Sequence record: NC_052659.1
Length of the DNA stretch: 64,000 bases
Source: Escherichia phage nieznany
Direction: 5' to 3' (one strand)
This document shows positions 4,576 through 64,000 of this stretch, one piece after another. Under the pieces are notes generated by a model. That model searched no databases. It was not told the origin of the DNA and was given only the letters and a program-made list of their open reading frames with translations. A program made the position numbers and the translations under genes. Every line of letters begins with the position of its first letter. Positions within the stretch are counted from its first letter, which is position 1.

Positions 4576-4576
4576 T

Positions 4577-5371
4577 ATGTCCGAGAAAATCAGCCTGAAA
4601 AAACGTCAAGAAAACCTTGCTTTCTCTCTGAAAAAGAATAAGAACCTGAATGAAGGTAAGATTGTTCTTCGTGTAGCATGTGCTCTAGATATTTCTGGTA
4701 GTATGCATGGTCTATATTCTAGTGGGGTAGTGAGTGATTTTGTAGGTAAACTGCTTCCTTTTGGTATGCTGTTCGACGATAATCAACAAATTGATATGTG
4801 GGCCTTCAATACGAGTTCCCAAGAGCTTACTCCAGCAACAGCAGACGTTTACGATGACTATGTTGGTAAATGTATGCGTAATGTTCGTATCGGAGGTGGA
4901 ACAAATTACGCCCCTGTAATGGCAGATATCTACGATGAGTATTTTGGCACTGTTACCAAATATATTACCACTAAACAAGTGGTACAAGAGGAGGCTCCAA
5001 AGAAAGGCTTCTTTAATCGTCTGCTTGGTAAAACTGAAACAGTGTCTGTAGAGCGTGAAAAAGTTGTAGCTGTATCTGAACCAGGTGCTGACGTTACCCC
5101 TGGTGTTGTATTCTTCCAGACGGATGGTGAGAATGGTGATCCTAGTGCTGTTCGTCGTCTTATTGAAGAGAATAAGAATAAACCTATTTATTGGTTCATG
5201 GTTGGCGTTGGTAATGAGAAGTTTGGCTTCCTGAAAGAACTGGCAAATGCTTATGATAATGTTGGTTTTATTGGCATTAAAGATTTAGACTTGACAGATT
5301 CAGAGCTTTATGACAAACTCTTATCTGAAGAGTTCGGAGAGTGGGTTGTTAAAGTAGGTGCTAAAAAATGA
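4577..5371 (+). CDS. von Willebrand factor A domain protein with TerD-like N-terminal leader (TerY/TerF-like)
   Basis: MIDAS-like DISGS motif, GGGTNY and TDGENGD motifs; N-terminus SEKISLKK resembles TerD N-terminus. Confidence 0.55.
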   Translation: MSEKISLKKRQENLAFSLKKNKNLNEGKIVLRVACALDISGSMHGLYSSGVVSDFVGKLLPFGMLFDDNQQIDMWAFNTSSQELTPATADVYDDYVGKCMRNVRIGGGTNYAPVMADIYDEYFGTVTKYITTKQVVQEEAPKKGFFNRLLGKTETVSVEREKVVAVSEPGADVTPGVVFFQTDGENGDPSAVRRLIEENKNKPIYWFMVGVGNEKFGFLKELANAYDNVGFIGIKDLDLTDSELYDKLLSEEFGEWVVKVGAKK

Positions 5372-5616
5372 TCGACGAGCTTGCCTCTCAAGTCGTAGAA
5401 AATTATTGGCGCGAGAGAGAAGCTTTCATTATGCGCAGTCTCAAAGAGTATTTCATTGGGACTGTGCGAATGGAAGATATTGTAAGTAGAGTAGAGATTC
5501 ATGTATGGCCCGATTATGAAGAATGGGTTGACAAAGAAAATGAAAATGCTATAATTCTTCGTATATACAAACCGGAGATAACATTAGGAGGAAGAAGTGT
5601 TAAACTTCGAAATTGA
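5368..5616 (+). CDS. hypothetical protein
   Basis: ORF overlapping neighbours by a few nt. Confidence 0.35.
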   Translation: MIDELASQVVENYWREREAFIMRSLKEYFIGTVRMEDIVSRVEIHVWPDYEEWVDKENENAIILRIYKPEITLGGRSVKLRN

Positions 5617-5866
5617 TGAGCAAAAAGTAAATAAACGATGCCTTACCATTAAAGATTTGGATGTAGGAGATACTTTCGTCTATGAAAATGCATTTGACGA
5701 AAATGGTTTAGACCTTAGTGAAATCATTGTTTATTTAAAAGTAGATGATGGGGAAAATGATTATTCTGCTGTAGAACTAAACCATCATGCACAATTAGTA
5801 TCAATCCAAAACACATCTAAGCTTTTGGAAGTAGAATTGACTGTAACTGGTATTACACTTAAATAA
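5597..5866 (+). CDS. small protein, paralog B of duplicated Ter-associated ORF
   Basis: GTG start after AGGAGG; paralog of 4297..4575; directly precedes TerD gene. Confidence 0.45.
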   Translation: MLNFEIDEQKVNKRCLTIKDLDVGDTFVYENAFDENGLDLSEIIVYLKVDDGENDYSAVELNHHAQLVSIQNTSKLLEVELTVTGITLK

Positions 5867-13554: not shown

Positions 13555-14349
13555 TTGAGCAAGTTGAACACACTTGATCAATATTACACTAACCCCGCTT
13601 ATGCGGGGTTCTTATGTGATAAGATCAAAGAAATTTTTGGAGAGGAAGCTAACTACGTAGAACCATCTGCGGGAGAAGGAGCTTTCTCTTCTTGTTTTAA
13701 AAACATAACTTCTTTTGATATTGATCCTAAGTTTGAAGATTGTATTGAGGCAGATTTTTTAGCTCAATCTGTAGAGTCTGTTGGTAGTGTAACTGCTTTT
13801 GTCGGTAATCCTCCGTTTGGAAAAAATGCTAGTCTTGCCATTAAGTTCTTTAACCATTGTGCTGAAATGTTGGATAACGAAGGTGGTATTTGTTTTATCT
13901 TGCCTCGCACATTTCAAAAAATCTTTTTTGCACACAAACTAAATCCCCACATGCATCTTCTTTACGAAGAAGAATGTCCAAAAGGATCTTTTATTCTTCA
14001 TGGAGAACCTTGGGATGTTCCTTGTGTATTCCAGATATGGACTAAACGCAACGAGAAGCGTTCTCCCGTTGTTTTAGGAGAAAATCGACTATTCGTATTA
14101 GGCAACAGTAAAGACTACGACATAGCCGTTAGGAGAGCGGGAGCAAGTGCAGGTAAAGTGTTATCAGAAGAAGATTCTTTATCTGAAGCATCTACCTATT
14201 TTTTAAAAGCCTTGACTTCTGATCTTAAAACGCGTATCATTGAGGCTTACCCGTTACTTAAAGCTGAAGCTAGTAAAACTGCGGGAGTAAGAAGTTTAAG
14301 TTTAAAAGAACTTCAGTGGGTTCTGGAGAACATTAGAAAGGAGGAATAG
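13555..14349 (+). CDS. putative DNA N6-adenine (or N4-cytosine) methyltransferase
   Basis: SAM-binding EPSAGEGAF followed by catalytic NPPF motif; TTG start after AAGGAGG. Confidence 0.55.
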   Translation: MSKLNTLDQYYTNPAYAGFLCDKIKEIFGEEANYVEPSAGEGAFSSCFKNITSFDIDPKFEDCIEADFLAQSVESVGSVTAFVGNPPFGKNASLAIKFFNHCAEMLDNEGGICFILPRTFQKIFFAHKLNPHMHLLYEEECPKGSFILHGEPWDVPCVFQIWTKRNEKRSPVVLGENRLFVLGNSKDYDIAVRRAGASAGKVLSEEDSLSEASTYFLKALTSDLKTRIIEAYPLLKAEASKTAGVRSLSLKELQWVLENIRKEE

Positions 14350-17300
14350 TGAGTAAGTTTACATGGGATATTGAAGCAAACGGATTGTTGAATAATGACA
14401 CTATTGATTATTTAGCTAGTCCTTATCGTCTCAAAGACACATTTCAAATGCACTGTATTGTCTTAGAGAACCATGAAACAGGAGAAATAGTAGCTTTCCA
14501 CGATGGCCCTAAATACATTTTTGATGGTCGTCCTTATGAAGAGTCAGATGATAAATATACATATGTTCTTAAAGAATATGTGGCGCAAGATTACACACAT
14601 TTTCAACTAAAAGATTTCCCAGATTTTATTAATCATGAAGGTTATTTTAAAGACAAGCCTGAATATTTGGTTGAAATGGCTGTGGCACACAACGGTATCA
14701 ACTATGACTGGTTGGCTACAAAACTGTTTTATGGATTAGATTACAGTGTTAAATATAACACGTGGGGTAAAAGCAAGGTAAAACTTATTGACTCCTTAAT
14801 TTTGAGTAAAGTGTTAAACCCAGATCGAAAGATTGAGGGCAAATCAGGACATAGTTTGGCAGCACTTTCTCGAAAGGCAGGTGGGGATGTAAAAATAGAT
14901 TTCCGTAAAGAGATTCCAGAAGAAGATCGATTTAAGACTTTTGCTGCGGATATGCTTTATTACTGTATCTATGACAACAAAGCCAATACGAGCGTATATA
15001 ATTACCTTATGGAAGAGTGGGGTGATTATGATAAATGGGAAGGTCCATTTGAACTTGAACAACGTGTAGCAGACATTATTACACGCCAGGAACACCGTGG
15101 GTTTGCTTTTAACATGAAGCAAGCAGAAGAGAACCTTGCTTTTTTAGATGCAGAAATGGAGCGTCTTCGTTTACTCGTTGAGCCTATTTTGCCACCTAAA
15201 CCAGCAACAAAAGGTTATCTTAAGGCTTTTATTCCACCTAAGTTGCAAATTAAAAAGAACTTAGAGCCAACTAACCATATGATCAATTTTGCTAAGAAAC
15301 ATGATGGTCATTTGGAAGAGAGGGATGGAGATTGGTGGTTAGTGATGTTGGGGAAAGAGTGGAAACTGCCAGTTGCAGCAGATGAGCCTTTGTGTGATCC
15401 TAATATCCCTGCAACATTGAACGATACAACCCATATTAAAAACTGGCTTGTAGGATTAGGTTGGGTACCATCGGAATATAAAGATAAAGATTTGACTCTT
15501 AAATCTGGCACCAAGATTAAAAAGAGTGAGGAAGAACTTCAGAAAGGTATTCGAGCTTACGTTGAGCAAACTCTATCTTCTAATTTTTGTCAAGACCGTT
15601 GTGATCATCTGGAGTGCACACCGGAAACCTTGGAAAGGAAGATTCAAGAGCGTATAGCAAAAGGTAAAGGTCGAGGTCTTAAAGTATTGACTAACCCATG
15701 TTTTACCAAAGGTCAGGAAAAAGAAATCTGTCCTAACCTGCAAGCTTTGGGTGAGAAATTTCCTTATGCTACACAGATTGTAGAATACTTAACGTATAAA
15801 CACCGTAGGAACTCTATTTTAGGTGGTGGTGCCGATTGGGAAGAAGACGAAGAAGATCAAGAATACAACAAAGGTTTCTTGGCAGCAGTTCGTGCAGATG
15901 GACGTATACCTACGCCAGCGGCTACATGCGATGCAGCAACCTCTCGTATGAAGCATAGGTCTGTAGCCAATATTCCTCGTGTTACCTCTTTGTTTGGATG
16001 GCAGATGCGTAACCTGTTTGGTGTAGAGGTTCCTAAATACTTCCAGATTGGTTATGACTTTGATTCATTAGAGGCGAAGATTGAGTCGCATTATACGTGG
16101 AGATATGATAATCCTGATCATGCTTACTGTAATGCACTTCTGTTAGAAAAACCAAACGATGTGCATACTATGATGGCAAAACATATTACTGATATTATTG
16201 GACGTAAGTTTGAACGTGGTCCTGCTAAGAGCGTTAAATACGGTTGTGTACCTGTAGATAATACGGAAGTGTTAACAAGAACGGGTTGGAAGAAACGTAA
16301 AGATCTTTTTGTAGGGGATGAAGTTTTATCTTATAATACTCACACCGCTCTTTACGAATATACCCCTATTCTTAAGCTGTGGGACTATAACGATGCAGAA
16401 GTTGTCTCTCTCGGTAACAAGTGGTTCAAAGTAGAAGTTACTAACGATCATATGTGGATTAACGCACAGAGAAAAACTATGCGATCAGATGGTAACAATG
16501 TTAAGTATATGCAAGTGGAGCGTAGATCTACAGAGGATTTAAACTCGGAGTCAAACATAATTGCAGCAGGGCGATCTGGTGTGGTGTCTACTCTAACAGT
16601 GGAAGAAGGTCGTTTCTTAGGCTGGCTTCTTTCGGATGGCTACTATAAGTGGTCTGGCAAAGCCAGAAATAAAGTAATGGGTATTACAGTCACGGTAGAT
16701 CAAGATGAGAAAAAATTCTTAGAAGAAGCACGTGAGGCTGTGGGAGATATCTTCACATTTGACGAGTATGTATCTGGAACGATGCATTCATTACGTCCTA
16801 ATAAGAGTCAGTTTAGGGAATTTTTGACTAAATGTGGCGTTGAAGTGGGTCAAAATAAGCACGAAGTGGACTGGTCTACATTAATTGCTAATCAAGGTCA
16901 AGCTGTGTTGGAAGCATTCTTAGAGGCATTCTGGATGGCAGATGGTCATAAGCGTCCAAACGGCAGTCTTGTTATCCGTCAAAAGAAAGGTAAGATTAGC
17001 GACGCTGTTTCTTTGGCTATCAATATGACAGGTAATATTGCGTATGGTTCTGTTCAAAAAGATGGCATGTTAACGTTGGCAATCAATAACGGACAAACTA
17101 TTTCAGGACAGAGGTTGACAAAAGCTTTTTCACGAGTAACAGATGTATTCTGTATCTCAACCAAGAATGAATCTTTTGTTATGCGTCAGAATGGTTTTAT
17201 CACGTTGACAGGTAACTGCACGTACGGCGCTCAAGCAGACAAGGTTGCTAAAACAATTGGTAGCGATAAATACACAGGGCAACTGGTGTTCGATGCTTTC

Positions 17301-17918
17301 TGGGAAGCTGCATTCCCACTGGCGCGTCTTAAAGAACGTTTAAACGATTTCTGGGTTAAGACTGGTAAACAGTATGTTTTGGGTATTGACGGTCGTAAGG
17401 TTCCTACTCGTTCTGCTCACGCGATTCTTAACTCTCTGTTCCAAAGTGGTGGGGTTATCTGTGCTAAACGTGCAATGGTTATTTATGACGACATGATCGA
17501 AGAAGAAGGGCTAAGTGTTGACTTCTTTAAAGATGACTGGAAGAATAAAGACTTCGTGCAACAAATGATTGCATATCACGATGAAGCCCAGCTTGAAGTT
17601 TCTCGTAACCTTGTAGAATTTAAATGGTTTTCACCTGAATCATTAGGTTGGAAGAAAGTAGACGATCCTGAAGAACAAAAGAAAATTGATAAAGAATGCC
17701 TTGCTAAAGTTGAAGAATGGAAGCATAATAAGGAAAAAGAGACAGGGCAAATTTGGGCTAACATTCATGAATCTCCCAAAGGTGGATGGTTTACAGCCTA
17801 TAGTCGGGCAGGTGAACTTGCTGCTTTAGCTGTTACTAAGGCTGGAGAATTTTACAATCTTAATGTTCAGCTTACTGCCGGATATGATGTGGGTAACTCC
17901 TGGGCGAGCTGCCATTAG
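14349..17918 (+). CDS. family A DNA polymerase with 3'-5' exonuclease domain, interrupted by an intein
   Basis: Exo I DIEANGL; motif A GYDFDSLEAK; motif B RGPAKSVKYG|intein|CTYGAQADK (compare T7 RDNAKTFIYGFLYGAG); motif C YHDE. Confidence 0.9.
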   Translation: MSKFTWDIEANGLLNNDTIDYLASPYRLKDTFQMHCIVLENHETGEIVAFHDGPKYIFDGRPYEESDDKYTYVLKEYVAQDYTHFQLKDFPDFINHEGYFKDKPEYLVEMAVAHNGINYDWLATKLFYGLDYSVKYNTWGKSKVKLIDSLILSKVLNPDRKIEGKSGHSLAALSRKAGGDVKIDFRKEIPEEDRFKTFAADMLYYCIYDNKANTSVYNYLMEEWGDYDKWEGPFELEQRVADIITRQEHRGFAFNMKQAEENLAFLDAEMERLRLLVEPILPPKPATKGYLKAFIPPKLQIKKNLEPTNHMINFAKKHDGHLEERDGDWWLVMLGKEWKLPVAADEPLCDPNIPATLNDTTHIKNWLVGLGWVPSEYKDKDLTLKSGTKIKKSEEELQKGIRAYVEQTLSSNFCQDRCDHLECTPETLERKIQERIAKGKGRGLKVLTNPCFTKGQEKEICPNLQALGEKFPYATQIVEYLTYKHRRNSILGGGADWEEDEEDQEYNKGFLAAVRADGRIPTPAATCDAATSRMKHRSVANIPRVTSLFGWQMRNLFGVEVPKYFQIGYDFDSLEAKIESHYTWRYDNPDHAYCNALLLEKPNDVHTMMAKHITDIIGRKFERGPAKSVKYGCVPVDNTEVLTRTGWKKRKDLFVGDEVLSYNTHTALYEYTPILKLWDYNDAEVVSLGNKWFKVEVTNDHMWINAQRKTMRSDGNNVKYMQVERRSTEDLNSESNIIAAGRSGVVSTLTVEEGRFLGWLLSDGYYKWSGKARNKVMGITVTVDQDEKKFLEEAREAVGDIFTFDEYVSGTMHSLRPNKSQFREFLTKCGVEVGQNKHEVDWSTLIANQGQAVLEAFLEAFWMADGHKRPNGSLVIRQKKGKISDAVSLAINMTGNIAYGSVQKDGMLTLAINNGQTISGQRLTKAFSRVTDVFCISTKNESFVMRQNGFITLTGNCTYGAQADKVAKTIGSDKYTGQLVFDAFWEAAFPLARLKERLNDFWVKTGKQYVLGIDGRKVPTRSAHAILNSLFQSGGVICAKRAMVIYDDMIEEEGLSVDFFKDDWKNKDFVQQMIAYHDEAQLEVSRNLVEFKWFSPESLGWKKVDDPEEQKKIDKECLAKVEEWKHNKEKETGQIWANIHESPKGGWFTAYSRAGELAALAVTKAGEFYNLNVQLTAGYDVGNSWASCH
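16245..17216 (+). mobile_element. intein (324 aa) with LAGLIDADG homing endonuclease, inserted in polymerase motif B
   Basis: Starts with Cys after KYG; ends ...FITLTGN before Cys+1; LAGLIDADG-like LGWLLSDGYY and LEAFWMADGH; excision restores motif B. Confidence 0.7.
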
Positions 17919-17947: not shown

Positions 17948-18526
17948 ATGGTTTATGATCATGGTGTTTTTGATGGAGATATTACCGTAAGATCTCCTGA
18001 AGGAGTTATGCATCCTGCTTATATGAAATGGATGGCTATGTTGGGGAGGTGTTACTCCCCTTGCCAGCAGGTAAGAGATGTTGCCTACCACGGTGTTACG
18101 GTTTGTGATGATTGGAAGTTATTCTCTAACTTCTATTCTTGGTTACAAACTTGGGACAACTGGGAAAAATTAGAACTTGACAAGGATCTTATAGGAGGGG
18201 GCGTTTACTCCCCTGCTTCTTGCTTGATGATTTCTGGAAACCTTAATAAGTTCTTAGCTTATAGGAAGAAGACGGGGCAAATGGTAGGTTGTAATTACGA
18301 AAAGGATCGCAAGAAATATAAGGCCCATATAAAAGTAGACGGTCGTATTATAACACTCGGACGTTTTGATACTGAACTTGAGGCACATCTTTGTTGGTTG
18401 AAAGCTAAAGCAGAACAACTCACAAAGTTTTTTGAAATAGAAGACAAGAGAGTTGTTCCTTATCTTAAAGCATTGTATAATGAAATGCTTGAGCACGTAG
18501 AACAACACAAAGAGTGGACACGATAG
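17948..18526 (+). CDS. AP2-domain DNA-binding protein, putative homing-endonuclease-like
   Basis: C-terminal YKAHIKVDGRIITLGRFDTELEAHLCW matches AP2 domain; N-terminal Y..W..M..RC motif common in phage HNH-AP2 proteins; no clear HNH catalytic motif seen. Confidence 0.5.
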   Translation: MVYDHGVFDGDITVRSPEGVMHPAYMKWMAMLGRCYSPCQQVRDVAYHGVTVCDDWKLFSNFYSWLQTWDNWEKLELDKDLIGGGVYSPASCLMISGNLNKFLAYRKKTGQMVGCNYEKDRKKYKAHIKVDGRIITLGRFDTELEAHLCWLKAKAEQLTKFFEIEDKRVVPYLKALYNEMLEHVEQHKEWTR

Positions 18527-24315: not shown

Positions 24316-26340
24316 TTATCGTGTTACAACAACCATGTCCACGATATCACCCACACCAGGATACGTTAATTGCAAAATTGTTACTGCGTTAGCAGTAGTT
24401 GCTATTTCTGTATCATTTAGTGCTCCATAAGACGCATCTAGTGTAACCGTGTGTCCCGTTGTATCTTGAATCAAATAAATCATTGCTGAAAACGCTTTAG
24501 GTTTTGTAGAGCCAGTGACACCAGGCCATGCTCCAACTGTCAGAGCGTCAGTTACTGTAACAACATACATATTGGAAGTTCCAGAAGGAGTCCAAGATGC
24601 TCCAGAGTTGGCAGTAGTTGTTTCAAGTTCCATGAAACCTGCTGTAACTTTAGTTGGTGTTATAGCTTCCGTAGGATCTGATCCTGATATTTCGATCCAG
24701 TTTCCATCAGAACGACCATACGTCAAGCCGTCTTGAGGGGCTTCTGGTATACTAGGAAGAGTTCCTATAAGTGTCCACGTAGAAGAATCTGTTTTCTTAA
24801 ACACTGCTCCAGTGGTAGTATTGAAGGCGTAATCATTGATAACACCGTCTCCTGCGACTGGATTAGTTGTTGCTACAAACCATTGTGCGCCGTCCTTACC
24901 GTTGGTCCCATTAGTACCATTGGTTCCGTTTGCTCCTGGATCACCTTTCTCACCTTTATCTCCCTTCTCGCCTTTGTCACCTTTAATACTCCCCATGTCA
25001 ACAAAAGATGCGGAATTGGTGTCTTGATCATAAGTATAGATGTAAAGATTACTGGTGTCTTCAGTTAAATAAGCATCGCCATAGTTATTATAAACGGGGA
25101 GAGCTTCTCCATTTGCAACATGACCTTTAGCTGTAATAGATCTACCACCCAAACTACCCACATTGAGCCACGTTTGATTGTCGTCGATCCACACGTAAAG
25201 GTCATTTTTTACAATGTAGGCATCACCAACCTCCGCTACAGACGGTAGTTCTGAAACATCTGACAATTCGCCATTTACAGAAAGACCTGCACCAACCGGA
25301 CCTTGGATACCTTGAACACCCTGTTCACCTTGTGGACCAGGATCTCCCTTATCTCCTTTGTCCCCCTTCTCTCCTTTTAAGGAAGCAACAAAATCTACTT
25401 CTGTCCCTTCATTACCAGCATCCAGCCAACTTTGATATGCAGATTTCCCTTCGTCTCCATCTGTTCCATCTAGACCGTCTTTACCTGCCTCACCTTGTGG
25501 ACCTTGAGGACCAACAATATTACCCATGTTGACCCAAGCTGTCCCATTAGAGACATAAAGATTGCCATTGATAGAATAAGCTTGGCTTACGTTTTCAGAG
25601 TTAGGTTGTGGTAAGTTACTTGTAGAAGGCAAATCCCCACGATAATCAAAACCGTTGGCGTTAACACCAGGTGCTCCCTGTGGCCCTGTAGGACCAACAT
25701 CGCCTTTATCGCCTTTTATAGAGGTAAGAAAATCATAAACAGACCCTGTATTACCATCTGCCAACCATACCTCGTAAGCTGATTTACCTTCTGGCCCAAG
25801 AGAAGAAATAAGTTTCCAAACAGAACCATCCCAAGCGTAAATCACATCACCTACAATATAACCATCCCCTGCAACGTTACCTGTAGATGGTAGTTCACTA
25901 GTGCTTGCTAATGATCCTTTAATATTAAGTTGAGCACCAGTATCCCCTTTCAAAGAGGCAAGCCATTGTGCTTCTGTTCCAACAAAACCATTATCAAGTG
26001 CGATCTGATAAGCCGATTTACCAGCTTCAGGTATTGTTTCCGACAGATCATCAATCTGTTGCTGCACTGCCGTAAACTTGGCATTGATAATTGCTATATC
26101 ATCAGCGGTCCCAACACTTTGCCATGCAAGGGAAGAAATACCACCTGTGGTGGCTGGCGTAGAGTTTGCTGGAACTACTTTAGGAAAAGTTCCTTTCCAT
26201 TGGTAATAATTCCCTTCTGCTGCTAACAGCAAAACTTCACGGGAATTACGTAATGTAAAACCTGCCTCAAAGCTGCGACGTTTTCGATAAGTAGCTTCTA
26301 CCAGATCGGCTATCGCACTATTAGGTCTTGTTAAATTCAT
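24316..26340 (-). CDS. tail fiber protein with collagen-like Gly-X-Y repeats
   Basis: GPQGPQGEAGKDGLDGTDG and KGDKGEKGDKGEKGDPGANGTNGTNGTNGKDG tracts; three copies of a ~30-aa GKSAY..WL..GN.G...F..SLKGD.G repeat. Confidence 0.6.
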   Translation of the reverse strand: MNLTRPNSAIADLVEATYRKRRSFEAGFTLRNSREVLLLAAEGNYYQWKGTFPKVVPANSTPATTGGISSLAWQSVGTADDIAIINAKFTAVQQQIDDLSETIPEAGKSAYQIALDNGFVGTEAQWLASLKGDTGAQLNIKGSLASTSELPSTGNVAGDGYIVGDVIYAWDGSVWKLISSLGPEGKSAYEVWLADGNTGSVYDFLTSIKGDKGDVGPTGPQGAPGVNANGFDYRGDLPSTSNLPQPNSENVSQAYSINGNLYVSNGTAWVNMGNIVGPQGPQGEAGKDGLDGTDGDEGKSAYQSWLDAGNEGTEVDFVASLKGEKGDKGDKGDPGPQGEQGVQGIQGPVGAGLSVNGELSDVSELPSVAEVGDAYIVKNDLYVWIDDNQTWLNVGSLGGRSITAKGHVANGEALPVYNNYGDAYLTEDTSNLYIYTYDQDTNSASFVDMGSIKGDKGEKGDKGEKGDPGANGTNGTNGTNGKDGAQWFVATTNPVAGDGVINDYAFNTTTGAVFKKTDSSTWTLIGTLPSIPEAPQDGLTYGRSDGNWIEISGSDPTEAITPTKVTAGFMELETTTANSGASWTPSGTSNMYVVTVTDALTVGAWPGVTGSTKPKAFSAMIYLIQDTTGHTVTLDASYGALNDTEIATTANAVTILQLTYPGVGDIVDMVVVTR

Positions 26341-53864: not shown

Positions 53865-54980
53865 TTATTGTTTCTGGGCTTTTTTAAGTTCAGCAGCTTT
53901 CTGACTAATCAGTTCAGAAGAAGATTTAGCTACAGGTTGAGTATTGATCACATCAACACCACGTTCTGTTCCAAATTCTTTCTTAACTGCGTCCACTTCT
54001 GCACGTGCTTTTTCGAATGCTTTGACGATAGTTTCAGCGATATCTTTATTGTCTACCAGATATTTAACGAGAGCTTCAACTTTGTCTTCTTCTACGAAAG
54101 AATAGGATTTAACAACAGTTGTATATTCTTCTTCGATACGAGCTTGTTCAGCTTTACGAAGTTCTTCTGCTTCCTGTTCTGCCTTAGCGATTTTTTCCTG
54201 TGCTTCAAGTTCTGCGGCTGCACGTGCATCTGCTGCTGCTTTTTCTACAGCTTCAGCGATCTGTGCTTTCATCAGTTCTTGGAATTCAGCAGATTTCAGG
54301 AATTCTTCTTTGTTGATATTTTCCAAAGGGGTTTCTCCTTTATTGATTCCAGTTGTGTTTGCAGATTTATCACCTGCGGGGTTAGCCTCTGCATCCACAG
54401 AGTTTGTATTAGCTTTAGCGTGAGCTTTCACTAAATAATCTTTAACTTGACTTTGTTTCAAGGAACTCTTAACGAGATTACTCAAAGCATCGTCTAAAAC
54501 GTCCTCAAAGAAATCAATGGAGATCATTACATCACCATCAACAACTTGATAATCAGTAACACGAACAACAGGTTTAGCAACCTCTTCAACTTCAACATTC
54601 AGTCCGTCAACTTTAAAGCCAACAGAGAACATACCGTTATCTGAACAGAAAATTGCAACGTTCGCATCGAAGTCAGCATCAATAACGTAAACCCAATCCC
54701 AACCAGCTTCAAATTTTTCACGCACTTTTTCAGAAATGCGATCCATCACTTGTTGAATATAGCTTTTACGTAACTCTGTAACATCTTCTCCCATTTTAGT
54801 GAGAGCTTCTAACTTTTCAAAAGTTATGTCTGGAGATCCGTCTGACTTAAATAAAAGGGGGGTATTATAACCAGATGCCGCTCCACCTTGAAAATCAAAA
54901 GTGTAAGCAATATGAGCACCTAGTGACTCTTCCGTAGCTTTTCCAGAAAAGTCTACGTTAGTTAAATATGTATTTGCCAC
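53865..54980 (-). CDS. putative scaffolding protein (possibly with protease function)
   Basis: C-terminal charged coiled coil KAEQEAEELRKAEQARIEEE; position between portal and capsid. Confidence 0.35.
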   Translation of the reverse strand: MANTYLTNVDFSGKATEESLGAHIAYTFDFQGGAASGYNTPLLFKSDGSPDITFEKLEALTKMGEDVTELRKSYIQQVMDRISEKVREKFEAGWDWVYVIDADFDANVAIFCSDNGMFSVGFKVDGLNVEVEEVAKPVVRVTDYQVVDGDVMISIDFFEDVLDDALSNLVKSSLKQSQVKDYLVKAHAKANTNSVDAEANPAGDKSANTTGINKGETPLENINKEEFLKSAEFQELMKAQIAEAVEKAAADARAAAELEAQEKIAKAEQEAEELRKAEQARIEEEYTTVVKSYSFVEEDKVEALVKYLVDNKDIAETIVKAFEKARAEVDAVKKEFGTERGVDVINTQPVAKSSSELISQKAAELKKAQKQ

Positions 54981-60800: not shown

Positions 60801-60879
60801 TGGAGGCGGGAATTGGATTTGAACCAATGATCTCCAGCATATGAAACTGGCGAGGACGACCAGACTCCTCTATCCCGCT
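60801..60879 (-). tRNA. tRNA-Met or tRNA-Ile2 (anticodon CAT), CCA encoded
   Basis: Manual cloverleaf: acceptor AGCGGGA/TCCCGCC (1-72 mismatch), anticodon loop TTCATAT, T-arm ATTGG-TTCAAAT-CCAAT, discriminator U. Confidence 0.6.
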
Positions 60880-60885
60880 ATTAGG

Positions 60886-60955
60886 TATCCCGTGCTGGAT
60901 TCGAACCAGCATCACAATAAGCTGTGGAACTCTTATCCTGTAAGTCTAACGGGAA
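60886..60955 (-). tRNA. tRNA-like gene with non-canonical anticodon region (anticodon undetermined)
   Basis: Canonical T-arm GCTGG-TTCGAAT-CCAGC and 6-bp acceptor stem, but no D-arm and only a 5-bp stem with 10-nt loop where the anticodon arm should be. Confidence 0.35.
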
Positions 60956-60957
60956 AC

Positions 60958-61031
60958 TGGTTGTTTCGACAAGAATCGAACTTGTGTCTCACGATTATCA
61001 GTCGTGGGTTCTACCATTGAACTACGAAACA
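60958..61031 (-). tRNA. tRNA-Ile (anticodon GAT), CCA encoded
   Basis: Acceptor CGAAACA/TGTTTCG, D-arm GTTC-AATGGTA-GAAC, anticodon loop CTGATAA, T-loop TTCGATT. Confidence 0.8.
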
Positions 61032-61037
61032 TTAAAT

Positions 61038-61114
61038 TGGTCGGAATTGCAGGATTCGAACCTGCGACCCTACGCTCCCAAAGCGTATGCTCTACCAAAC
61101 TGAGCTAAATTCCG
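61038..61114 (-). tRNA. tRNA-Pro (anticodon TGG), CCA encoded
   Basis: Acceptor AATTCCG/CGGAATT, D-arm GCTC..GAGC, anticodon loop TTTGGGA, T-loop TTCGAAT. Confidence 0.8.
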
Positions 61115-61207
61115 TCATAACATTCTAAAGGTACACCGCAAAAGAAAGTGTTCGGCGGCTCCTCGTTTTTAACTTCACACTTGAGGTAGTGACTCACCTT
61201 TGTTATA

Positions 61208-61283
61208 TGGCTGGTCTGTCTGGATTTGAACCAAACCTACGACAGTCAAAGTGTCGTGTGCTACCGGACTACACTACAAACCA
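61208..61283 (-). tRNA. tRNA-Gln (anticodon TTG), CCA encoded
   Basis: Acceptor TGGTTTG/CAGACCA, anticodon stem CGACA/TGTCG, loop CTTTGAC, T-loop TTCAAAT. Confidence 0.7.
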
Positions 61284-61381
61284 ATAAATCATTTAATGAA
61301 GGGCAACCAGAAGAGGTGTGAGAGAAGGAGAAAACCATGAGTAAAAGAGAAAGTTTTCTGGCAACCCTTTATTAAATAATT

Positions 61382-61455
61382 TGGAGCGTTCTACGAGGAT
61401 CGAACTCGTGCCGCCGACTTGGAAGGACGGAATGCTACCGCTACACCAAGAACGC
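61382..61455 (-). tRNA. tRNA-Gly (anticodon TCC), CCA encoded
   Basis: Acceptor GCGTTCT/AGAACGC, anticodon loop CTTCCAA, discriminator U as typical of bacterial tRNA-Gly. Confidence 0.7.
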
Positions 61456-61466
61456 CCTACATCTTT

Positions 61467-61496
61467 ACTATACTACATTTTACTATTGGTTGTCAA
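61467..61496 (-). promoter_or_regulatory. sigma70-like promoter for tRNA sub-cluster 1 (TTGACA-18-TATAGT), minus strand
   Basis: Plus TGTCAA 61491..61496 within CTATTGACAA motif; -10 about 6 nt upstream of tRNA-Gly 5' end. Confidence 0.45.
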
Positions 61497-61771
61497 TAGT
61501 TTTATTGAGTGGGACAGTGACGAGTATCCCGTTGGGTGACTAGCCCTACGTTCGGTAAGCTAACTTAAAATAATACAAAACCAAAGTCAAATATTATTCT
61601 TCGTTGCTGTCGATGGGAGAGCCGCTTCTTCTTTTGCCCCATCCAACCCTACTCCGGTCAAGTTTCAGGTAACTCTTTTTGTGTGATCAACACAATACTA
61701 AGAACACTGTCTTTCGAACAGACCTTGTGCACAGGATACGACGATCAATCACAGTGCTCTTAATGTTGTGT

Positions 61772-61846
61772 TGGTGCTCCCACTCTGAATCGAACAGAGA
61801 TCCACGGATTACAAAACCGTTGTAATAGCCATTATACTATAGGAGC
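61772..61846 (-). tRNA. tRNA-Thr (anticodon TGT), CCA encoded
   Basis: Acceptor GCTCCTA/TGGGAGC, anticodon loop TTTGTAA, T-arm CTCTG-TTCGATT-CAGAG. Confidence 0.65.
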
Positions 61847-61852
61847 AAAGCT

Positions 61853-61929
61853 GGGACTCGGCAGGATTCGATACCTGCAATTCCAGAAGCCTCTTGGCGA
61901 CTGGGGGTTTACCTTAACTCTACAAGTCC
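61853..61929 (-). tRNA. tRNA-like gene with non-canonical T-loop and anticodon region (anticodon undetermined)
   Basis: 7-bp acceptor stem GGACTTG/CGAGTCC, T-stem GCAGG/CCTGC with 8-nt loop TATCGAAT, no clean 5-7-5 anticodon arm. Confidence 0.3.
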
Positions 61930-61936
61930 ATAATTC

Positions 61937-62023
61937 TGGCGATGAGTATAGGATTTGAACCTATATCGTTCTTTCGAACACGGATTAACAGTCCGCCGCT
62001 TAAACCATTCAGCCAACTCATCT
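61937..62023 (-). tRNA. tRNA with Asn anticodon (GTT) on a long-variable-arm scaffold, CCA encoded
   Basis: Perfect acceptor ACTCATC/GATGAGT, discriminator G, anticodon arm GCGGA-CTGTTAA-TCCGT, plus a 15-nt extra arm GTTCGAAAGAACGAT. Confidence 0.55.
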
Positions 62024-62028
62024 TAATT

Positions 62029-62116
62029 TGGTGGTGAGTGATGGAGTCGAACCACCCGAATCGCAATGATAACAGATTTACAGTCTGCCCCGCTACCCCT
62101 ACGGAATTAACTCACC
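62029..62116 (-). tRNA. tRNA-Tyr (anticodon GTA), type II, CCA encoded
   Basis: Acceptor ACTCACC/GGTGAGT, anticodon arm GCAGA-CTGTAAA-TCTGT, long variable arm, T-loop TTCGACT. Confidence 0.7.
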
Positions 62117-62245
62117 TAAATACTAATATTTAAATTCTTTTTAAAATAGCCAGTGTTCACACCACTAACTATGAGTTATCGGTAAGATGGTGGGGCCATC
62201 TGCCGAAAGTTTACTCTATTAAAGTAAGCCATATTAAAAAGAACT

Positions 62246-62331
62246 TGGCGGTAGATGTAGGACTCGAACCTACACGCCGTTTCCGACTACAGTTTAGCAA
62301 ACTGTCGTGGCTACCATTTCACCAATCTACC
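62246..62331 (-). tRNA. tRNA-Ser (anticodon GCT), type II, CCA encoded
   Basis: Acceptor ATCTACC/GGTAGAT, 3-bp D-stem GTG/CAC, anticodon arm ACAGT-TTGCTAA-ACTGT, 15-nt variable arm, discriminator G. Confidence 0.75.
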
Positions 62332-62336
62332 TAATC

Positions 62337-62427
62337 TGGCGGAAGGAGGGAGAGTCGAACTCCCAAGGCTCTTTCAAGCTCGGCGGTTTTCAAGACCGTT
62401 TTCGTCGCCACGTCGATTTGCCCTTCC
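62337..62427 (-). tRNA. tRNA-Ser (anticodon TGA), type II, CCA encoded
   Basis: Acceptor GGAAGGG/TCCTTCC, anticodon loop CTTGAAA, long variable arm, T-arm GGGAG-TTCGACT-CTCCC; D-region atypical. Confidence 0.6.
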
Positions 62428-62436
62428 ATACTTATA

Positions 62437-62465
62437 ATCTAACATAAAATAATGTTTGTTGTCAA
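62437..62465 (-). promoter_or_regulatory. sigma70-like promoter for tRNA sub-cluster 2 (TTGACA-17/18-TTAGAT), minus strand
   Basis: Plus TGTCAA 62460..62465 within CTATTGACAA motif; ends a few nt upstream of tRNA-Ser(TGA) 5' end. Confidence 0.4.
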
Positions 62466-62661
62466 TAGTTTTTTAAAACATTTTACCATGAATGGTGACT
62501 CCACCAACCCCCGTTCTCCACGAACGGTGCTCTTCGAGCATTTATGTCTTCTAATATAACCGTGGCCTTTGTTTATAATGTCTGACATACTTGCCTCATT
62601 CTCTGCCACCATGATCAGTAGTGGGTTCAAATCACTTGAGCTAATTCATGTTAAAATGTTC

Positions 62662-62736
62662 TGGTGTCTTTACAAGGAATCGAACCTTGACTAAGAGTTT
62701 AGAAGACTCCTGTGCTATCCATTACACCATAAAGAC
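62662..62736 (-). tRNA. tRNA-Arg (anticodon TCT), CCA encoded
   Basis: Acceptor TAAAGAC/GTCTTTA, D-arm GTGT..GCAC, anticodon loop CTTCTAA, T-arm CAAGG-TTCGATT-CCTTG. Confidence 0.75.
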
Positions 62737-62738
62737 GT

Positions 62739-62813
62739 TGGTGGCCCTGGCTGGTTTCGATCCAGCTACCTATCGGTTATGAGCCGACAGCTCTCCCATT
62801 GAGCTACAGGGCC
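62739..62813 (-). tRNA. tRNA-Met, elongator-type (anticodon CAT), CCA encoded
   Basis: Perfect acceptor CAGGGCC/GGCCCTG, D-arm GCTC-AATGGGA-GAGC, anticodon loop CTCATAA, atypical T-loop ATCGAAA. Confidence 0.65.
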
Positions 62814-63316: not shown

Positions 63317-63568
63317 CTAATCTGTTAGTTGTTCGTCCTCTACCAAGTTTGACACGAGAACGTCTGTTATATATTGATGCTGATAAACCCTTTCGGGACT
63401 ATCATCAAAAGCCAAACCTGTGCAAATAGAACAGAGGTCTGATTCCTTGATGACTCCATTTTTATCACGTCTGGAGTGGTTTGTCAAATGCCTATTACAA
63501 GCACGGCACCTAAAATAAAAGCTATTTTGCATATATCCTTCGAACCCCAAATGGGGAGTGATCGGCAT
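63317..63568 (-). CDS. putative zinc-ribbon protein
   Basis: CRACNRHL...CSICTG Cys pairs. Confidence 0.35.
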   Translation of the reverse strand: MPITPHLGFEGYMQNSFYFRCRACNRHLTNHSRRDKNGVIKESDLCSICTGLAFDDSPERVYQHQYITDVLVSNLVEDEQLTD

Positions 63569-63605: not shown

Positions 63606-63791
63606 TCAACTAGGAATAATTTTATCCCTTTTGGTTTCATAACCAGTCCAATCTAAATCCTCCCAGCCTTCATCATCGTCTAACACATTGTCATCATCAT
63701 AAGATGCAATGTTATAAATAGAACGTGGATTACAAGACATACAATCTTTAATAGGCACATGATGCCATTTGCACGGATTCTCACTAATCAT
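63606..63791 (-). CDS. hypothetical small protein
   Basis: ORF with RBS GGAGG before ATG 63791. Confidence 0.3.
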   Translation of the reverse strand: MISENPCKWHHVPIKDCMSCNPRSIYNIASYDDDNVLDDDEGWEDLDWTGYETKRDKIIPS

Positions 63792-63799
63792 TGCACACC

Positions 63800-64000
63800 T
63801 CCATTCTTGTTAAGATATTTCGTACTGTACTTCATACTAATCTATAGATCAAGTATTATTTATAATAATTTATTATTTTATTTTTAATTGATAGAAGTTG
63901 ATCTGTACGTACCAGTTCTGATACACTGTACCTGTTTGTTAGATCTAATAATTATTTATTATTAATATTTAATAATTATTAATCTAGTACGGAGTACAGT
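63800..64000. repeat. AT-rich region with short direct and inverted repeats (GTAC- and AGATC-containing)
   Basis: Repeated ACTGTAC/GTACAGT and (T)AGATC motifs in ATTATT-rich sequence; no ORF. Confidence 0.4.

What the first reader, a model, noticed from the sequence alone, without database searches (positions are those of the whole stretch)
63800..64000. AT-rich repeat-dense non-coding region at the window end
After the last minus-strand ORF the sequence becomes highly AT-rich with repeated GTAC-containing motifs in both orientations (cgtactgtac, tctgtacgtacc, acactgtacc, gagtacagt), recurring AGATC-containing motifs and ATTATT tracts. This could be a replication origin, a genome terminus or a regulatory hub with divergent promoters.
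Basis: seen in the sequence. Interest (0 to 1): 0.4.

Follow-up and report, generated by a model that had tools for sequence, protein, structure and literature searches.

The report
Divergent promoter hub with GTAC repeats
The AT-rich, repeat-dense stretch at the window end is the first half of a 480-bp control region between two oppositely transcribed gene blocks of a phAPEC8-type coliphage; it most likely holds back-to-back promoters, it is not a genome end, and a role as replication origin remains untested.

Summary
The window is a Phapecoctavirus genome, 100% identical to Escherichia phage tuntematon over its last 25 kb. GTAC is the most avoided 4-mer palindrome in that genome (obs/exp 0.33). 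Yet 10 GTACs sit within about 200 bp here, in the least stable DNA of the 150-kb genome.

The window end cuts a 480-bp divergent intergenic region. On the left lies a minus-strand arm (two or three small genes, the tRNA cluster, terminase, structural genes). On the right lies a plus-strand arm (small early-type genes, ligase, exonucleases, RNR).

Five genus-level lineages of Stephanstirmvirinae keep four sigma-70-like promoters at the same positions. The ATTATT tracts are the 45-bp AT tract between them. The GTACs overlap promoter cores or lie in a genus-specific inverted and tandem duplication of the leftward -10 segment.

The genome-terminus reading is refuted: the 329-bp terminal repeat of phage Schickermooser maps about 53 kb away. 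The origin reading is neither supported nor excluded, and a region at about 18 kb looks more iteron-like.

Two lineages have convergently destroyed the GTACs, genome-wide and mostly by synonymous changes. Exact GTAC is therefore dispensable. Verdict: an ordinary kind of element with an interesting twist.

The parts
63606..63791 (-). First gene of the leftward arm (61-aa protein, tuntematon_170 homologue, phrog_26411, function unknown). Its ATG at 63791 bounds the intergenic region.
   Evidence: ORF list, annotation, translation, PHROG match E 3e-47.
63792..64000 (.). Left 209 bp of a 480-bp divergent intergenic region. It continues beyond the window to extrapolated coordinate 64271 (L001 7793-8272), where gene 171 starts on the + strand.
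   Evidence: Annotation and sequence of the extended locus. The region is 93-100% identical in 63 Phapecoctavirus records.
63824..63852 (-). Predicted leftward promoter P_L: -35 TTGATC (63852..63847), 17-bp spacer, -10 TACAGT (63829..63824). The start site would lie about 26 nt before the ATG of gene 170, upstream of the GGAGG ribosome-binding site.
   Evidence: Scan. The same position holds TTGACT-N17/18-TAGAGT in phiWec188 and muut, and TTGACC-N17-TAGTAT or TACACT in Tr1 and phi1_175008. In BI-EHEC the -10 reads TACAAT.
63853..63897 (.). AT tract 1 (45 bp) between the back-to-back -35 hexamers of P_L and P_R1. It sits where UP elements would sit, and it is the second least stable 40-mer of the genome.
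   Evidence: Sequence; nearest-neighbour ranking; AT-rich in all five lineages.
63898..63927 (+). Predicted rightward promoter P_R1: -35 TTGATC (63898-63903), 18-bp spacer containing GTACGTAC, extended -10 TGaTACACT (63919-63927).
   Evidence: The equivalent sites are TTGATC-N18-TGtTACTAT (phiWec188), TTGTTA-N17-TGtTAGTAT (muut), TTGTAA-N17-TGtTAGTAT (Tr1) and TTGATT-N17-TATAGT (phi1_175008).
63822..63839 (-). Left copy of an 18-nt inverted repeat (TAGTATGAAGTACAGTAC on the minus strand), overlapping the -10 and start site of P_L. It lies inside the 56-nt left arm that GenBank annotates as repeat_region.
   Evidence: Inverted repeat I1, arms of 56 nt, 71% complementary. The 10-mer AGTACAGTAC is unique to these two places in the genome. 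repeat_region 102443-102497.
63946..63983 (.). AT tract 2: a 38-bp all-A/T near-palindrome (TAATAATTATTTATTATTAATATTTAATAATTATTAAT), the least stable 40-mer of the genome. It lies in the stretch where predicted P_R1 and P_X transcription would converge.
   Evidence: Inverted repeat I2, 18-nt arms, 89% complementary; tandem repeat finder; stability ranking.
63985..64000 (+). Right copy of the 18-nt inverted repeat (TAGTACGGAGTACAGTAC, runs to 64002) and the start of a 13-bp tandem duplication (GAGTACAGTACTT / GAGTACAGAGTACT, to about 64020). This block of about 40 bp is an insertion specific to Phapecoctavirus.
   Evidence: It is a gap in phiWec188, muut, Tr1 and phi1_175008. It is intact in 61 of 63 records.
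63942..63947 (.). AGATCT within the motif TGTTAGATCT, which all five lineages keep at this relative position. Two other GATCs (63847, 63900) are parts of the two TTGATC -35 hexamers.

Best explanation
The stretch is the left half of the main divergent transcription-control region of a phAPEC8-type myovirus. It lies between two arms:
- a leftward arm: small genes 170 and 169, the tRNA cluster, terminase and structural genes;
- a rightward arm: small early-type genes, then ligase, exonucleases and ribonucleotide reductase.

Host sigma-70 RNA polymerase is predicted to start at two back-to-back promoters. P_L points left and P_R1 points right. Both have TTGATC as -35 hexamer, and these hexamers flank a 45-bp A/T tract placed where UP elements would be.

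Beyond the window end there are two more predicted promoters. P_X fires leftward (TTGACT-N18-TGtTACCCT) and P_R fires rightward, just upstream of gene 171. P_R1 and P_X would therefore converge across a second A/T palindrome.

The GTAC-rich repeats are not a genome-wide signal. Two lie on the -10 and start site of P_L, two in the P_R1 spacer and one at the P_R1 start. Five belong to a genus-specific block made by inverted and then tandem duplication of the P_L -10 segment. With its 7-nt deletion, that copy has only 10 bp between its -35-like and -10-like hexamers, so it is probably not a promoter itself. It may serve as a second operator or pause site, or it may do nothing.

Shown here: the anatomy, the statistics, the conservation, the position relative to genes, and the distance from the physical ends. 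Inferred: that the hexamer pairs are active promoters, and any role of the duplicated block.
For: Position:
- The locus is one of only two head-to-head junctions between the four long gene arms of the genome (a third, minor strand switch lies near 17.4 kb).

Promoter conservation:
- P_L, P_R1 and P_X are found at aligned positions in five lineages whose intergenic regions are only 55% identical: tuntematon, phiWec188, muut (Justusliebigvirus), Citrobacter Tr1 and Klebsiella phi1_175008.
- P_X is TTGACW-N17/18-TGnTACCCT in all five. P_R1 has an extended -10 in four of five.

Geometry:
- The P_L start site would lie about 26 nt before the ATG of gene 170, upstream of GGAGG.
- P_R (TTTACT-N17-TATCAT) lies about 38 nt before gene 171, upstream of a conserved hairpin and AGGAGG.

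The AT tract:
- It lies exactly between the two -35 hexamers and is AT-rich in all lineages.
- In the sister genus the homologous region is likewise the AT-richest 150 bp of a 50-kb chunk.

The repeats:
- They are unique to this locus. AGTACAGTAC occurs twice in 150 kb, and blastn-short of the region against the genome finds no other copy.
- The right block is a lineage-specific insertion.
- When BI-EHEC lost its GTACs, the P_L -10 became TACAAT, closer to consensus.
Against: - Individual promoter scores are modest, 8-9 of 12. The consensus scan finds no more promoter-like sites here than in shuffled sequence: 8 found against 8.2 expected over 2 kb. The case therefore rests on positional conservation, not on score.
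- No transcription start data exist for this phage group in the searched literature.
- The block around P_X (TTAGGGTAGCATACTT and CTCGCTKCGCTCG) is conserved well beyond the hexamers. It may be something other than, or more than, a promoter.
- The explanation does not say why ten copies of a strongly avoided tetranucleotide persist in 61 of 63 genomes.
Confidence: 0.62

Rival explanations
1. Replication origin, possibly in addition to promoter function. Transcription from P_R1 and/or P_X into the most easily melted DNA of the genome opens it or leaves an RNA primer. The phage's T7-type primase-helicase and family-A DNA polymerase then load. This would resemble the T7 primary origin and T4 oriF/oriG (established knowledge). 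The GTAC repeats would bind an initiator or an accessory protein.
For: - The two least stable 40-mers of the genome and its least stable 100- and 200-bp windows are here, as is its most AT-rich 150 bp.
- Predicted promoters point into AT tract 2 from both sides.
- The genome encodes a gp4-type primase/helicase and a PolA-type polymerase, by annotation.
- The strand of the region folds with significant dyad symmetry, z = -3.85.
- A local minimum of cumulative GC skew (102673) and the global minimum of cumulative AT skew (102590) fall here.
Against: - All four skew turning points coincide with switches of gene orientation, as reported for rV5 (PMC3606486), so skew is confounded.
- There are no regularly spaced direct iterons: the GTAC units are inverted and irregularly spaced, with only one 13-bp tandem pair.
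- No DnaA box with one mismatch or fewer lies within 1 kb.
- The GTAC block is absent from four sister lineages and was destroyed in two Phapecoctavirus lineages.
- A competing region at tuntematon 18064-18392 has four 18-nt palindromes at an exact 29-bp period and a 138-bp direct repeat in GC 0.20 DNA.
Confidence: 0.2
2. Physical genome terminus, terminal repeat or packaging (pac) site.
For: Only generic resemblance: an AT-rich, repeat-dense non-coding region about 4.5 kb upstream (in the direction of transcription) of the large terminase gene.
Against: - Schickermooser's read-defined ends (PMC6563267) give an exact 329-bp direct terminal repeat. It maps to tuntematon 4576-4910, inside a 1.6-kb non-coding gap.
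- This locus sits at 54492-54968 of that 151-kb record.
- Many independently assembled records place the locus internally, at about 54-57 kb.
Confidence: 0.02
3. The GTAC array is an operator set for an unidentified phage or host DNA-binding protein. The protein would bind AGTACAG-type sites on the -10 of P_L and again 163 bp away. By occlusion, looping or roadblock it would switch the two arms between early and late expression.
For: - An 18-nt inverted repeat, 16 of 18 identical, has one copy exactly on the P_L -10 and start site and the other in the stretch where P_R1 and P_X converge.
- GTACAG has 5 of its 19 genomic copies here, three pointing one way and two the other.
- The array persists in 61 of 63 genomes although GTAC is avoided genome-wide.
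Against: - BI-EHEC and KKP 3954 destroyed 9 and 7 of the 10 GTACs and are viable isolates.
- Among seven ordinary genomes the GTAC columns are no less variable than the other columns, 2/40 against 21/440.
- No partner protein is evident. Flanking genes 169-175 have no Pfam domain and only unknown-function PHROGs.
- Centre-to-centre spacing of 163 bp is about 15.5 helical turns, so the two sites would face opposite sides of the helix.
- The array can be explained as a by-product of duplicating one GTAC-containing promoter segment.
Confidence: 0.15

Closest known systems
Bidirectional (back-to-back) sigma-70 promoter regions at head-to-head gene-arm junctions of large virulent phages. One example is the junction between genes 10 and 11 of phage rV5, where bidirectional promoters were predicted (PMC3606486).
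   Same: Location at a switch of gene orientation. Host-type -35/-10 hexamers on both strands. An AT-rich tract between them. Skew turning points that track transcription direction.
   Different: The arrangement here is denser. It has four predicted promoters, two of them convergent. It also has a genus-specific inverted and tandem duplication of one promoter core, which makes a cluster of a tetranucleotide the genome otherwise avoids. None of the promoters has been mapped experimentally.
Transcription-activated phage origins: the T7 primary origin (promoters 1.1A/1.1B followed by an AT-rich segment) and T4 oriF/oriG (a middle promoter plus a downstream unwinding element). This is from established knowledge, not tested here.
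   Same: Promoter(s) aimed into the most easily unwound DNA of the genome. A T7-type primase-helicase and a PolA-type polymerase are encoded.
   Different: No evidence of initiation here. The promoters are host-type rather than phage-RNAP or MotA-type. The AT-rich element is flanked by convergent promoters. A second, more iteron-like candidate exists elsewhere in the genome.
Restriction-site avoidance in phage genomes (under-representation of short palindromes).
   Same: GTAC, GGCC, CCGG and CTAG are all depleted. In two lineages GTAC was purged further, by substitutions that are 11:1 and 7:2 synonymous.
   Different: Avoidance explains the genome-wide scarcity, not the local pile-up. The cluster is an exception to avoidance that most genomes of the genus tolerate or need.

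Membership tests
Divergent sigma-70 promoter region | -35 and -10 hexamers with 16-18 bp spacing on both strands | tested here: met
   P_L is TTGATC-17-TACAGT. P_R1 is TTGATC-18-TGaTACACT. P_X is TTGACT-18-TGtTACCCT. P_R is TTTACT-17-TATCAT. Scores are only 8-9 of 12, and the number of such sites is not above shuffled expectation.
Divergent sigma-70 promoter region | Promoter elements conserved in position across diverged relatives | tested here: met
   P_L, P_R1 and P_X are present at aligned positions in five lineages at 55% mean column identity.
Divergent sigma-70 promoter region | Sensible distance to the ribosome-binding site and start codon of the flanking genes | tested here: met
   The P_L -10 lies 33 nt from the ATG of gene 170, with GGAGG in between. 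The P_R -10 lies 45 nt from the ATG of gene 171, with AGGAGG in between.
Divergent sigma-70 promoter region | Mapped transcription start sites or promoter activity | not testable with these tools
   No transcript data for Stephanstirmvirinae were found in the searched literature.
Iteron-type replication origin | Several direct repeats (iterons) at regular, helically phased spacing | tested here: not met
   The repeats are mainly inverted. CTGTAC copies are 78 and 23 bp apart, and there is only one 13-bp tandem pair.
Iteron-type replication origin | Adjacent AT-rich DNA unwinding element | tested here: met
   The least stable 40-, 100- and 200-bp windows of the genome are here.
Iteron-type replication origin | DnaA boxes or an adjacent initiator gene | tested here: not met
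   No TTATCCACA with one mismatch or fewer lies within 1 kb. Flanking genes have no recognisable domains.
Transcription-activated origin (T7 / T4 type) | A promoter directed into a downstream AT-rich unwinding element | tested here: inconclusive
   Predicted P_R1 and P_X both point into AT tract 2, but the promoters are only predictions.
Transcription-activated origin (T7 / T4 type) | Initiation of DNA synthesis at the site (copy-number peak, RNA-DNA junctions) | not testable with these tools
   Needs sequencing of replicating DNA.
Genome terminus / direct terminal repeat / pac site | Physical ends of virion DNA map to the locus | tested here: not met
   The exact 329-bp terminal repeat of Schickermooser maps to tuntematon 4576-4910. 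The locus is at 54.5 kb of that record.
Restriction-site avoidance (context of the GTAC motif) | Genome-wide under-representation of the palindrome, with losses biased to synonymous changes | tested here: met
   GTAC obs/exp is 0.33. It is the top outlier among all 136 canonical 4-mers, with 57-60% of sites changed against 5-7% overall, in BI-EHEC and KKP 3954. The changes are 11:1 and 7:2 synonymous.

The most novel reading that the evidence does not exclude
The GTAC-palindrome array and the genome's most meltable DNA, entered by convergent promoters, might form a functional unit of its own. It could be a transcription-activated replication origin or an early/late switch bound by a still unidentified protein. 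Most Phapecoctavirus genomes would then keep it because it is useful, even though GTAC is under strong restriction-driven counter-selection. BI-EHEC and KKP 3954 would have sacrificed or rewired it under heavier restriction pressure.
Probability: 0.15. Interest if true: 0.55.

Novelty: new member of a known kind. Interest (0 to 1): 0.3.

Why it matters
phAPEC8-type phages are widely isolated and used in therapy and biocontrol work, yet their transcription programme and origin of replication are unmapped. This analysis pins down one of the two main head-to-head junctions of the genome and proposes four testable promoters that are conserved across the subfamily. It also removes the 'terminus' reading and names a competing origin candidate near 18 kb. 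The GTAC story is a small but clean example of conflict between restriction avoidance and a non-coding element. Two lineages erased the sites convergently while leaving every neighbouring base alone, which gives natural mutants for testing what the repeats do.

Tried and rejected
(1) 'GTAC is a chemically modified motif and the GTAC-to-GTAT changes in BI-EHEC and KKP 3954 are nanopore miscalls.'
- I held this view after learning that BI-EHEC is a nanopore-only assembly (PMC8686590) and that KKP 3954 has homopolymer indels and frameshifting GTATAC insertions.
- I rejected it because the coding-region changes are 11:1 and 7:2 synonymous, and the substituted base shifts with the codon frame. Codon-blind errors cannot do that.
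- Some KKP 3954 indels probably are assembly errors.

(2) Known RNA families. Rfam finds only tRNAs in the window, and nothing at E <= 1 in L001 7500-8700.

(3) A genome-wide promoter or regulatory motif. No part of the 480 bp recurs elsewhere in the genome.

(4) GC/AT skew as evidence for an origin. All turning points coincide with changes of gene orientation.

(5) DnaA boxes. None lie nearby.

(6) The GATC cluster as a Dam/SeqA-type signal. Three GATCs per 150 bp is ordinary in tuntematon. In phiWec188 the homologous region does hold the top GATC (5) and AGATCT (3) clusters of a 50-kb chunk, but GATC is not avoided there.

(7) The 'avoided but clustered' pattern as a general rule in the sister genus. 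Not found: GTAC obs/exp is 0.72 there and there is no cluster.

(8) An IMG/VR scan for more relatives gave a single contig of the Wecvirus type.

(9) Pfam on flanking proteins and on the three annotated methyltransferases gave no hits. PHROGs gave only 'unknown function' and 'DNA methyltransferase'.

(10) By eye, LexA, PhoB and NarL half-site resemblances of CTGTAC and TACTC units were considered. The spacing rules of those sites are not met. This was not tested formally.

(11) A conserved RNA hairpin at the GAGCGMAGCGAG box. Only 8 pairs, 3 of them compensatory, in 5 sequences: too weak to claim.

Full report
WHAT THE WINDOW IS. The last 25 kb of the window is 100% identical to Escherichia phage tuntematon (MN850618; Phapecoctavirus, Stephanstirmvirinae). 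Window coordinate equals record coordinate minus 38620 over this part. Further upstream the window is 96-98.5% identical and carries about 2 kb of extra sequence. It therefore comes from a very close relative, not from the deposited record itself. I used the tuntematon record to extend the sequence past the window end (locus L001; L001 position + 55999 = window position) and for genome-wide statistics.

CHECK OF THE OBSERVATION. All quoted motifs are present at the stated places. GC is 0.23 for 63800-63999.

GTAC is strongly avoided:
- The window has 54 copies against 183 +/- 12 in dinucleotide-preserving shuffles.
- The whole genome has 150 against about 449 expected from a Markov model. That ratio, 0.33, is the lowest of all sixteen 4-base palindromes.

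Against that background:
- Ten GTACs lie between window 63822 and extrapolated 64017. No other 250-bp window of the genome has more than four.
- GTACAG has 5 of its 19 genomic copies here, and AGTACAGTAC occurs only here, twice, inverted.
- The locus contains the most AT-rich 150 bp of the genome.
- It contains the two least stable 40-mers and the least stable 100- and 200-bp windows of the genome.

The window cuts the feature: the non-coding region is 480 bp long, window 63792 to extrapolated 64271.

SETTING. The genome consists of four long arms:
- minus strand, about 137.9 kb through the record ends to 24.9 kb;
- plus strand, 25.0-60.2 kb (helicase, primase-helicase, DNA polymerase);
- minus strand, 60.2-102.4 kb (tail, head, terminase, ten or eleven tRNAs, small genes);
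- plus strand, 102.9-137.9 kb (small genes, ligase, exonucleases, thymidylate synthase, RNR and others).

The finding lies at one of only two head-to-head junctions between these arms. Cumulative GC skew turns at 24982, about 60 kb, 102673 and 137970, which is exactly at the four switches of gene orientation. The same was reported for rV5 (PMC3606486). Skew therefore cannot serve as independent evidence for an origin.

NOT A TERMINUS. Korf et al. linearised the Phapecoctavirus Schickermooser at read-defined ends and reported a 328-bp terminal repeat (PMC6563267). The first 329 bases of its record equal the last 329. They map to tuntematon 4576-4910, inside a 1.6-kb non-coding gap. In that record the present locus lies at 54492-54968. 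The terminus reading is refuted for this genus.

ANATOMY AND COMPARATIVE EVIDENCE. The 480 bp are 93-100% identical in 63 Phapecoctavirus records. I located the homologous junction in four more lineages, through the flanking proteins and a conserved DNA block:
- phiWec179/188 and PsgM04F, proposed 'Wecvirus' (PMC12695924);
- muut (Justusliebigvirus);
- Citrobacter phage Tr1;
- Klebsiella phage phi1_175008.

The five-way alignment has 55% mean column identity. It keeps discrete blocks: AAGTCAA, an A/T tract, TGTTAGTAT-type and TGTTAGATCT motifs, CTCGCTKCGCTCG, TTAGGGTAGCATA and GTCAA. Read as promoters, these blocks give the following.
- P_L, leftward: TTGATC-17-TACAGT in tuntematon, and TTGACT-17/18-TAGAGT in phiWec188 and muut.
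- P_R1, rightward: TTGATC-18-TGaTACACT, with an extended -10 in four of five lineages.
- P_X, leftward: TTGACW-17/18-TGnTACCCT in all five lineages.
- P_R, rightward, next to gene 171: TTTACT-17-TATCAT, and TTGACA-17-TATCAT in phi1_175008.

- Two of the three GATCs are the TTGATC -35 hexamers of P_L and P_R1.
- The ATTATT tracts are the 45 bp between those back-to-back hexamers, plus a second A/T palindrome.
- Five GTACs sit on promoter cores: two on the P_L -10 and start site, two in the P_R1 spacer, one at the P_R1 start.

The other five GTACs are in a block of about 40 bp that the other four lineages lack. That block is an inverted copy of the P_L segment. TTAATCTA-GTACGGAGTACAGTAC matches TTGATCTA[TAGATTA]GTATGAAGTACAGTAC at 21 of 24 positions once the 7-nt deletion is allowed for. 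A 13-bp tandem duplication follows it. With only 10 bp between its hexamers, the copy is unlikely to be a promoter. GenBank marks one arm as 'repeat_region' without comment.

As a single strand the region folds with z = -3.85, and the outer GTAC arms pair.

Caveat: the hexamer scores are modest, and such sites are not more numerous here than in shuffled sequence. The argument rests on conservation of position and spacing.

THE GTAC TWIST. In a nine-genome alignment almost all substitutions in BI-EHEC and KKP 3954 fall on GTACs. They destroy 9 and 7 of the 10 sites, while the A/T tracts, the GATCs and the promoter blocks stay identical. I first suspected nanopore miscalls at a modified motif, for two reasons. 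BI-EHEC is a nanopore-only assembly (PMC8686590). KKP 3954 has homopolymer indels and frameshifting GTATAC insertions.

Three further results argue against that:
- In 45 kb of aligned sequence both genomes also changed 12-13 of 25 GTACs outside the locus, against 5-7% for other 4-mers. GTAC is the top outlier of all 136 canonical 4-mers.
- In coding regions the changes are 11:1 and 7:2 synonymous. The altered base depends on the codon frame: TAC to TAT, GTA to GTG, GGT to GGC.
- The two genomes often changed the same site in different ways.

These are therefore real, convergent, selected losses, which is the signature of restriction avoidance. I withdrew the modification idea.

Consequences:
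- Exact GTAC is dispensable in the control region, and the P_L -10 even improves to TACAAT in BI-EHEC.
- The cluster is nevertheless intact in 61 of 63 records.
- Among seven ordinary genomes the GTAC columns are as variable as the other columns, 2/40 against 21/440. There is thus no direct sign of extra constraint; the genomes are simply too similar to tell.

ORIGIN? In favour: extreme meltability, dyad symmetry, predicted promoters aimed into the A/T palindrome, and a T7-type replisome by annotation. This is the architecture of T7 and T4 transcription-activated origins (established knowledge).

Against, or neutral:
- no phased direct iterons;
- no DnaA boxes;
- skew is confounded;
- the repeat block is lineage-specific and erasable;
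- a more classical candidate exists at tuntematon 18064-18392, outside the window: four 18-nt palindromes at an exact 29-bp period, then a 138-bp direct repeat in GC 0.20 DNA.

I put the origin reading at about 0.2. It is not exclusive of the promoter reading.

VERDICT. The element is a new, uncharacterised member of a familiar kind, the bidirectional promoter region at a junction of phage gene arms. Its unusual feature is a genus-specific palindrome array made of a tetranucleotide that the genome otherwise purges. No paper in the searched library maps promoters, origins or this repeat in the group.

Noticed in passing
whole window and tuntematon genome; BI-EHEC locus L020, KKP 3954 locus L021: GTAC is the most avoided 4-base palindrome (obs/exp 0.33); GGCC (0.39), CCGG (0.46) and CTAG (0.50) are also depleted. 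BI-EHEC and KKP 3954 have independently removed about half of the remaining GTACs by mainly synonymous changes (11:1 and 7:2). This points to ongoing selection by a GTAC-specific restriction system.
   Followed up: yes
L022 (phiWec188 record 40001-90000): CTAG is completely absent from 50 kb of phiWec188 (0 observed, about 77 expected). GTAC is only mildly depleted there (0.72). Sister genera thus show very different palindrome-avoidance profiles.
   Followed up: partly
L002 18064-18392 (tuntematon record, outside the window): Four 18-nt palindromic, Fur-box-like repeats (ATGATAATCATTCTCATT type) lie at an exact 29-bp period. A 72-nt direct repeat follows, spaced 138 bp, in GC 0.20 DNA. This is iteron-like and a competing origin candidate. 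Similar Fur-box-like sequences cluster at 4630-5627, around the terminal-repeat region.
   Followed up: partly
window 14349-17918 (insertion at about 16245-17219) and 17948-18526: The DNA polymerase ORF in the window is 1189 aa. It carries an in-frame insertion of about 325 aa that tuntematon lacks, with LAGLIDADG-like motifs (LLSDGY, MADGH), so it looks like an intein. The adjacent 192-aa ORF is also absent from tuntematon.
   Followed up: partly
window 63317-63568 (-): An 83-aa ORF between genes 169 and 170 matches phrog_37033 at E 4.7e-61. It is not annotated in MN850618. phiWec188 annotates a gene at the same place.
   Followed up: partly
window 60801-62813 (-); 62032-62116 (-): A cluster of ten tRNA genes found by ARAGORN (Met, Ile, Pro, Gln, Gly, Thr, Asn, Ser, Arg, Met). 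Rfam finds an eleventh tRNA-like match at 39 bits that ARAGORN misses; some relatives annotate a tRNA-Tyr or a pseudo-tRNA there.
   Followed up: no
L001 8245-8257 (extrapolated window 64244-64256): The stem-loop GCGTC-AGA-GACGC lies immediately 5' of the ribosome-binding site of gene 171. Muut and Tr1 keep it with a different stem (GCTC/GAGC), so it is a conserved leader hairpin of unknown role.
   Followed up: no
L001 8040-8090 (extrapolated window 64039-64089): The blocks CTCGCTKCGCTCG and TTAGGGTAGCATACTT are invariant or nearly so in five genus-level lineages, well beyond what a -10 hexamer needs. A small hairpin around the first block shows 3 compensatory pairs out of 8.
   Followed up: partly
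L021 (KKP 3954, OR067838): The assembly has 31 indels against tuntematon in 45 kb. Many are in homopolymers, and several are 2-bp insertions at GTAC. They split conserved genes (head decoration protein, ThyX, RmlB), so they are probably assembly errors on top of real divergence.
   Followed up: partly
database hits H44, H42, H48: Records named Campylobacter phage B15, Acinetobacter phage vB_AbaM_ABPW7 and 'Dompiswa phage TSP7_1' are about 98% identical to coliphages across this locus. The host labels may not reflect the true host.
   Followed up: no
L018 (EP57, OR544956) 381-829: EP57 has a 40-bp deletion that removes the P_L -10 region and the left GTAC pair, and a second 20-bp deletion in the right half. 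The record is only 130.7 kb long. This is either a natural promoter deletion or an assembly defect.
   Followed up: no
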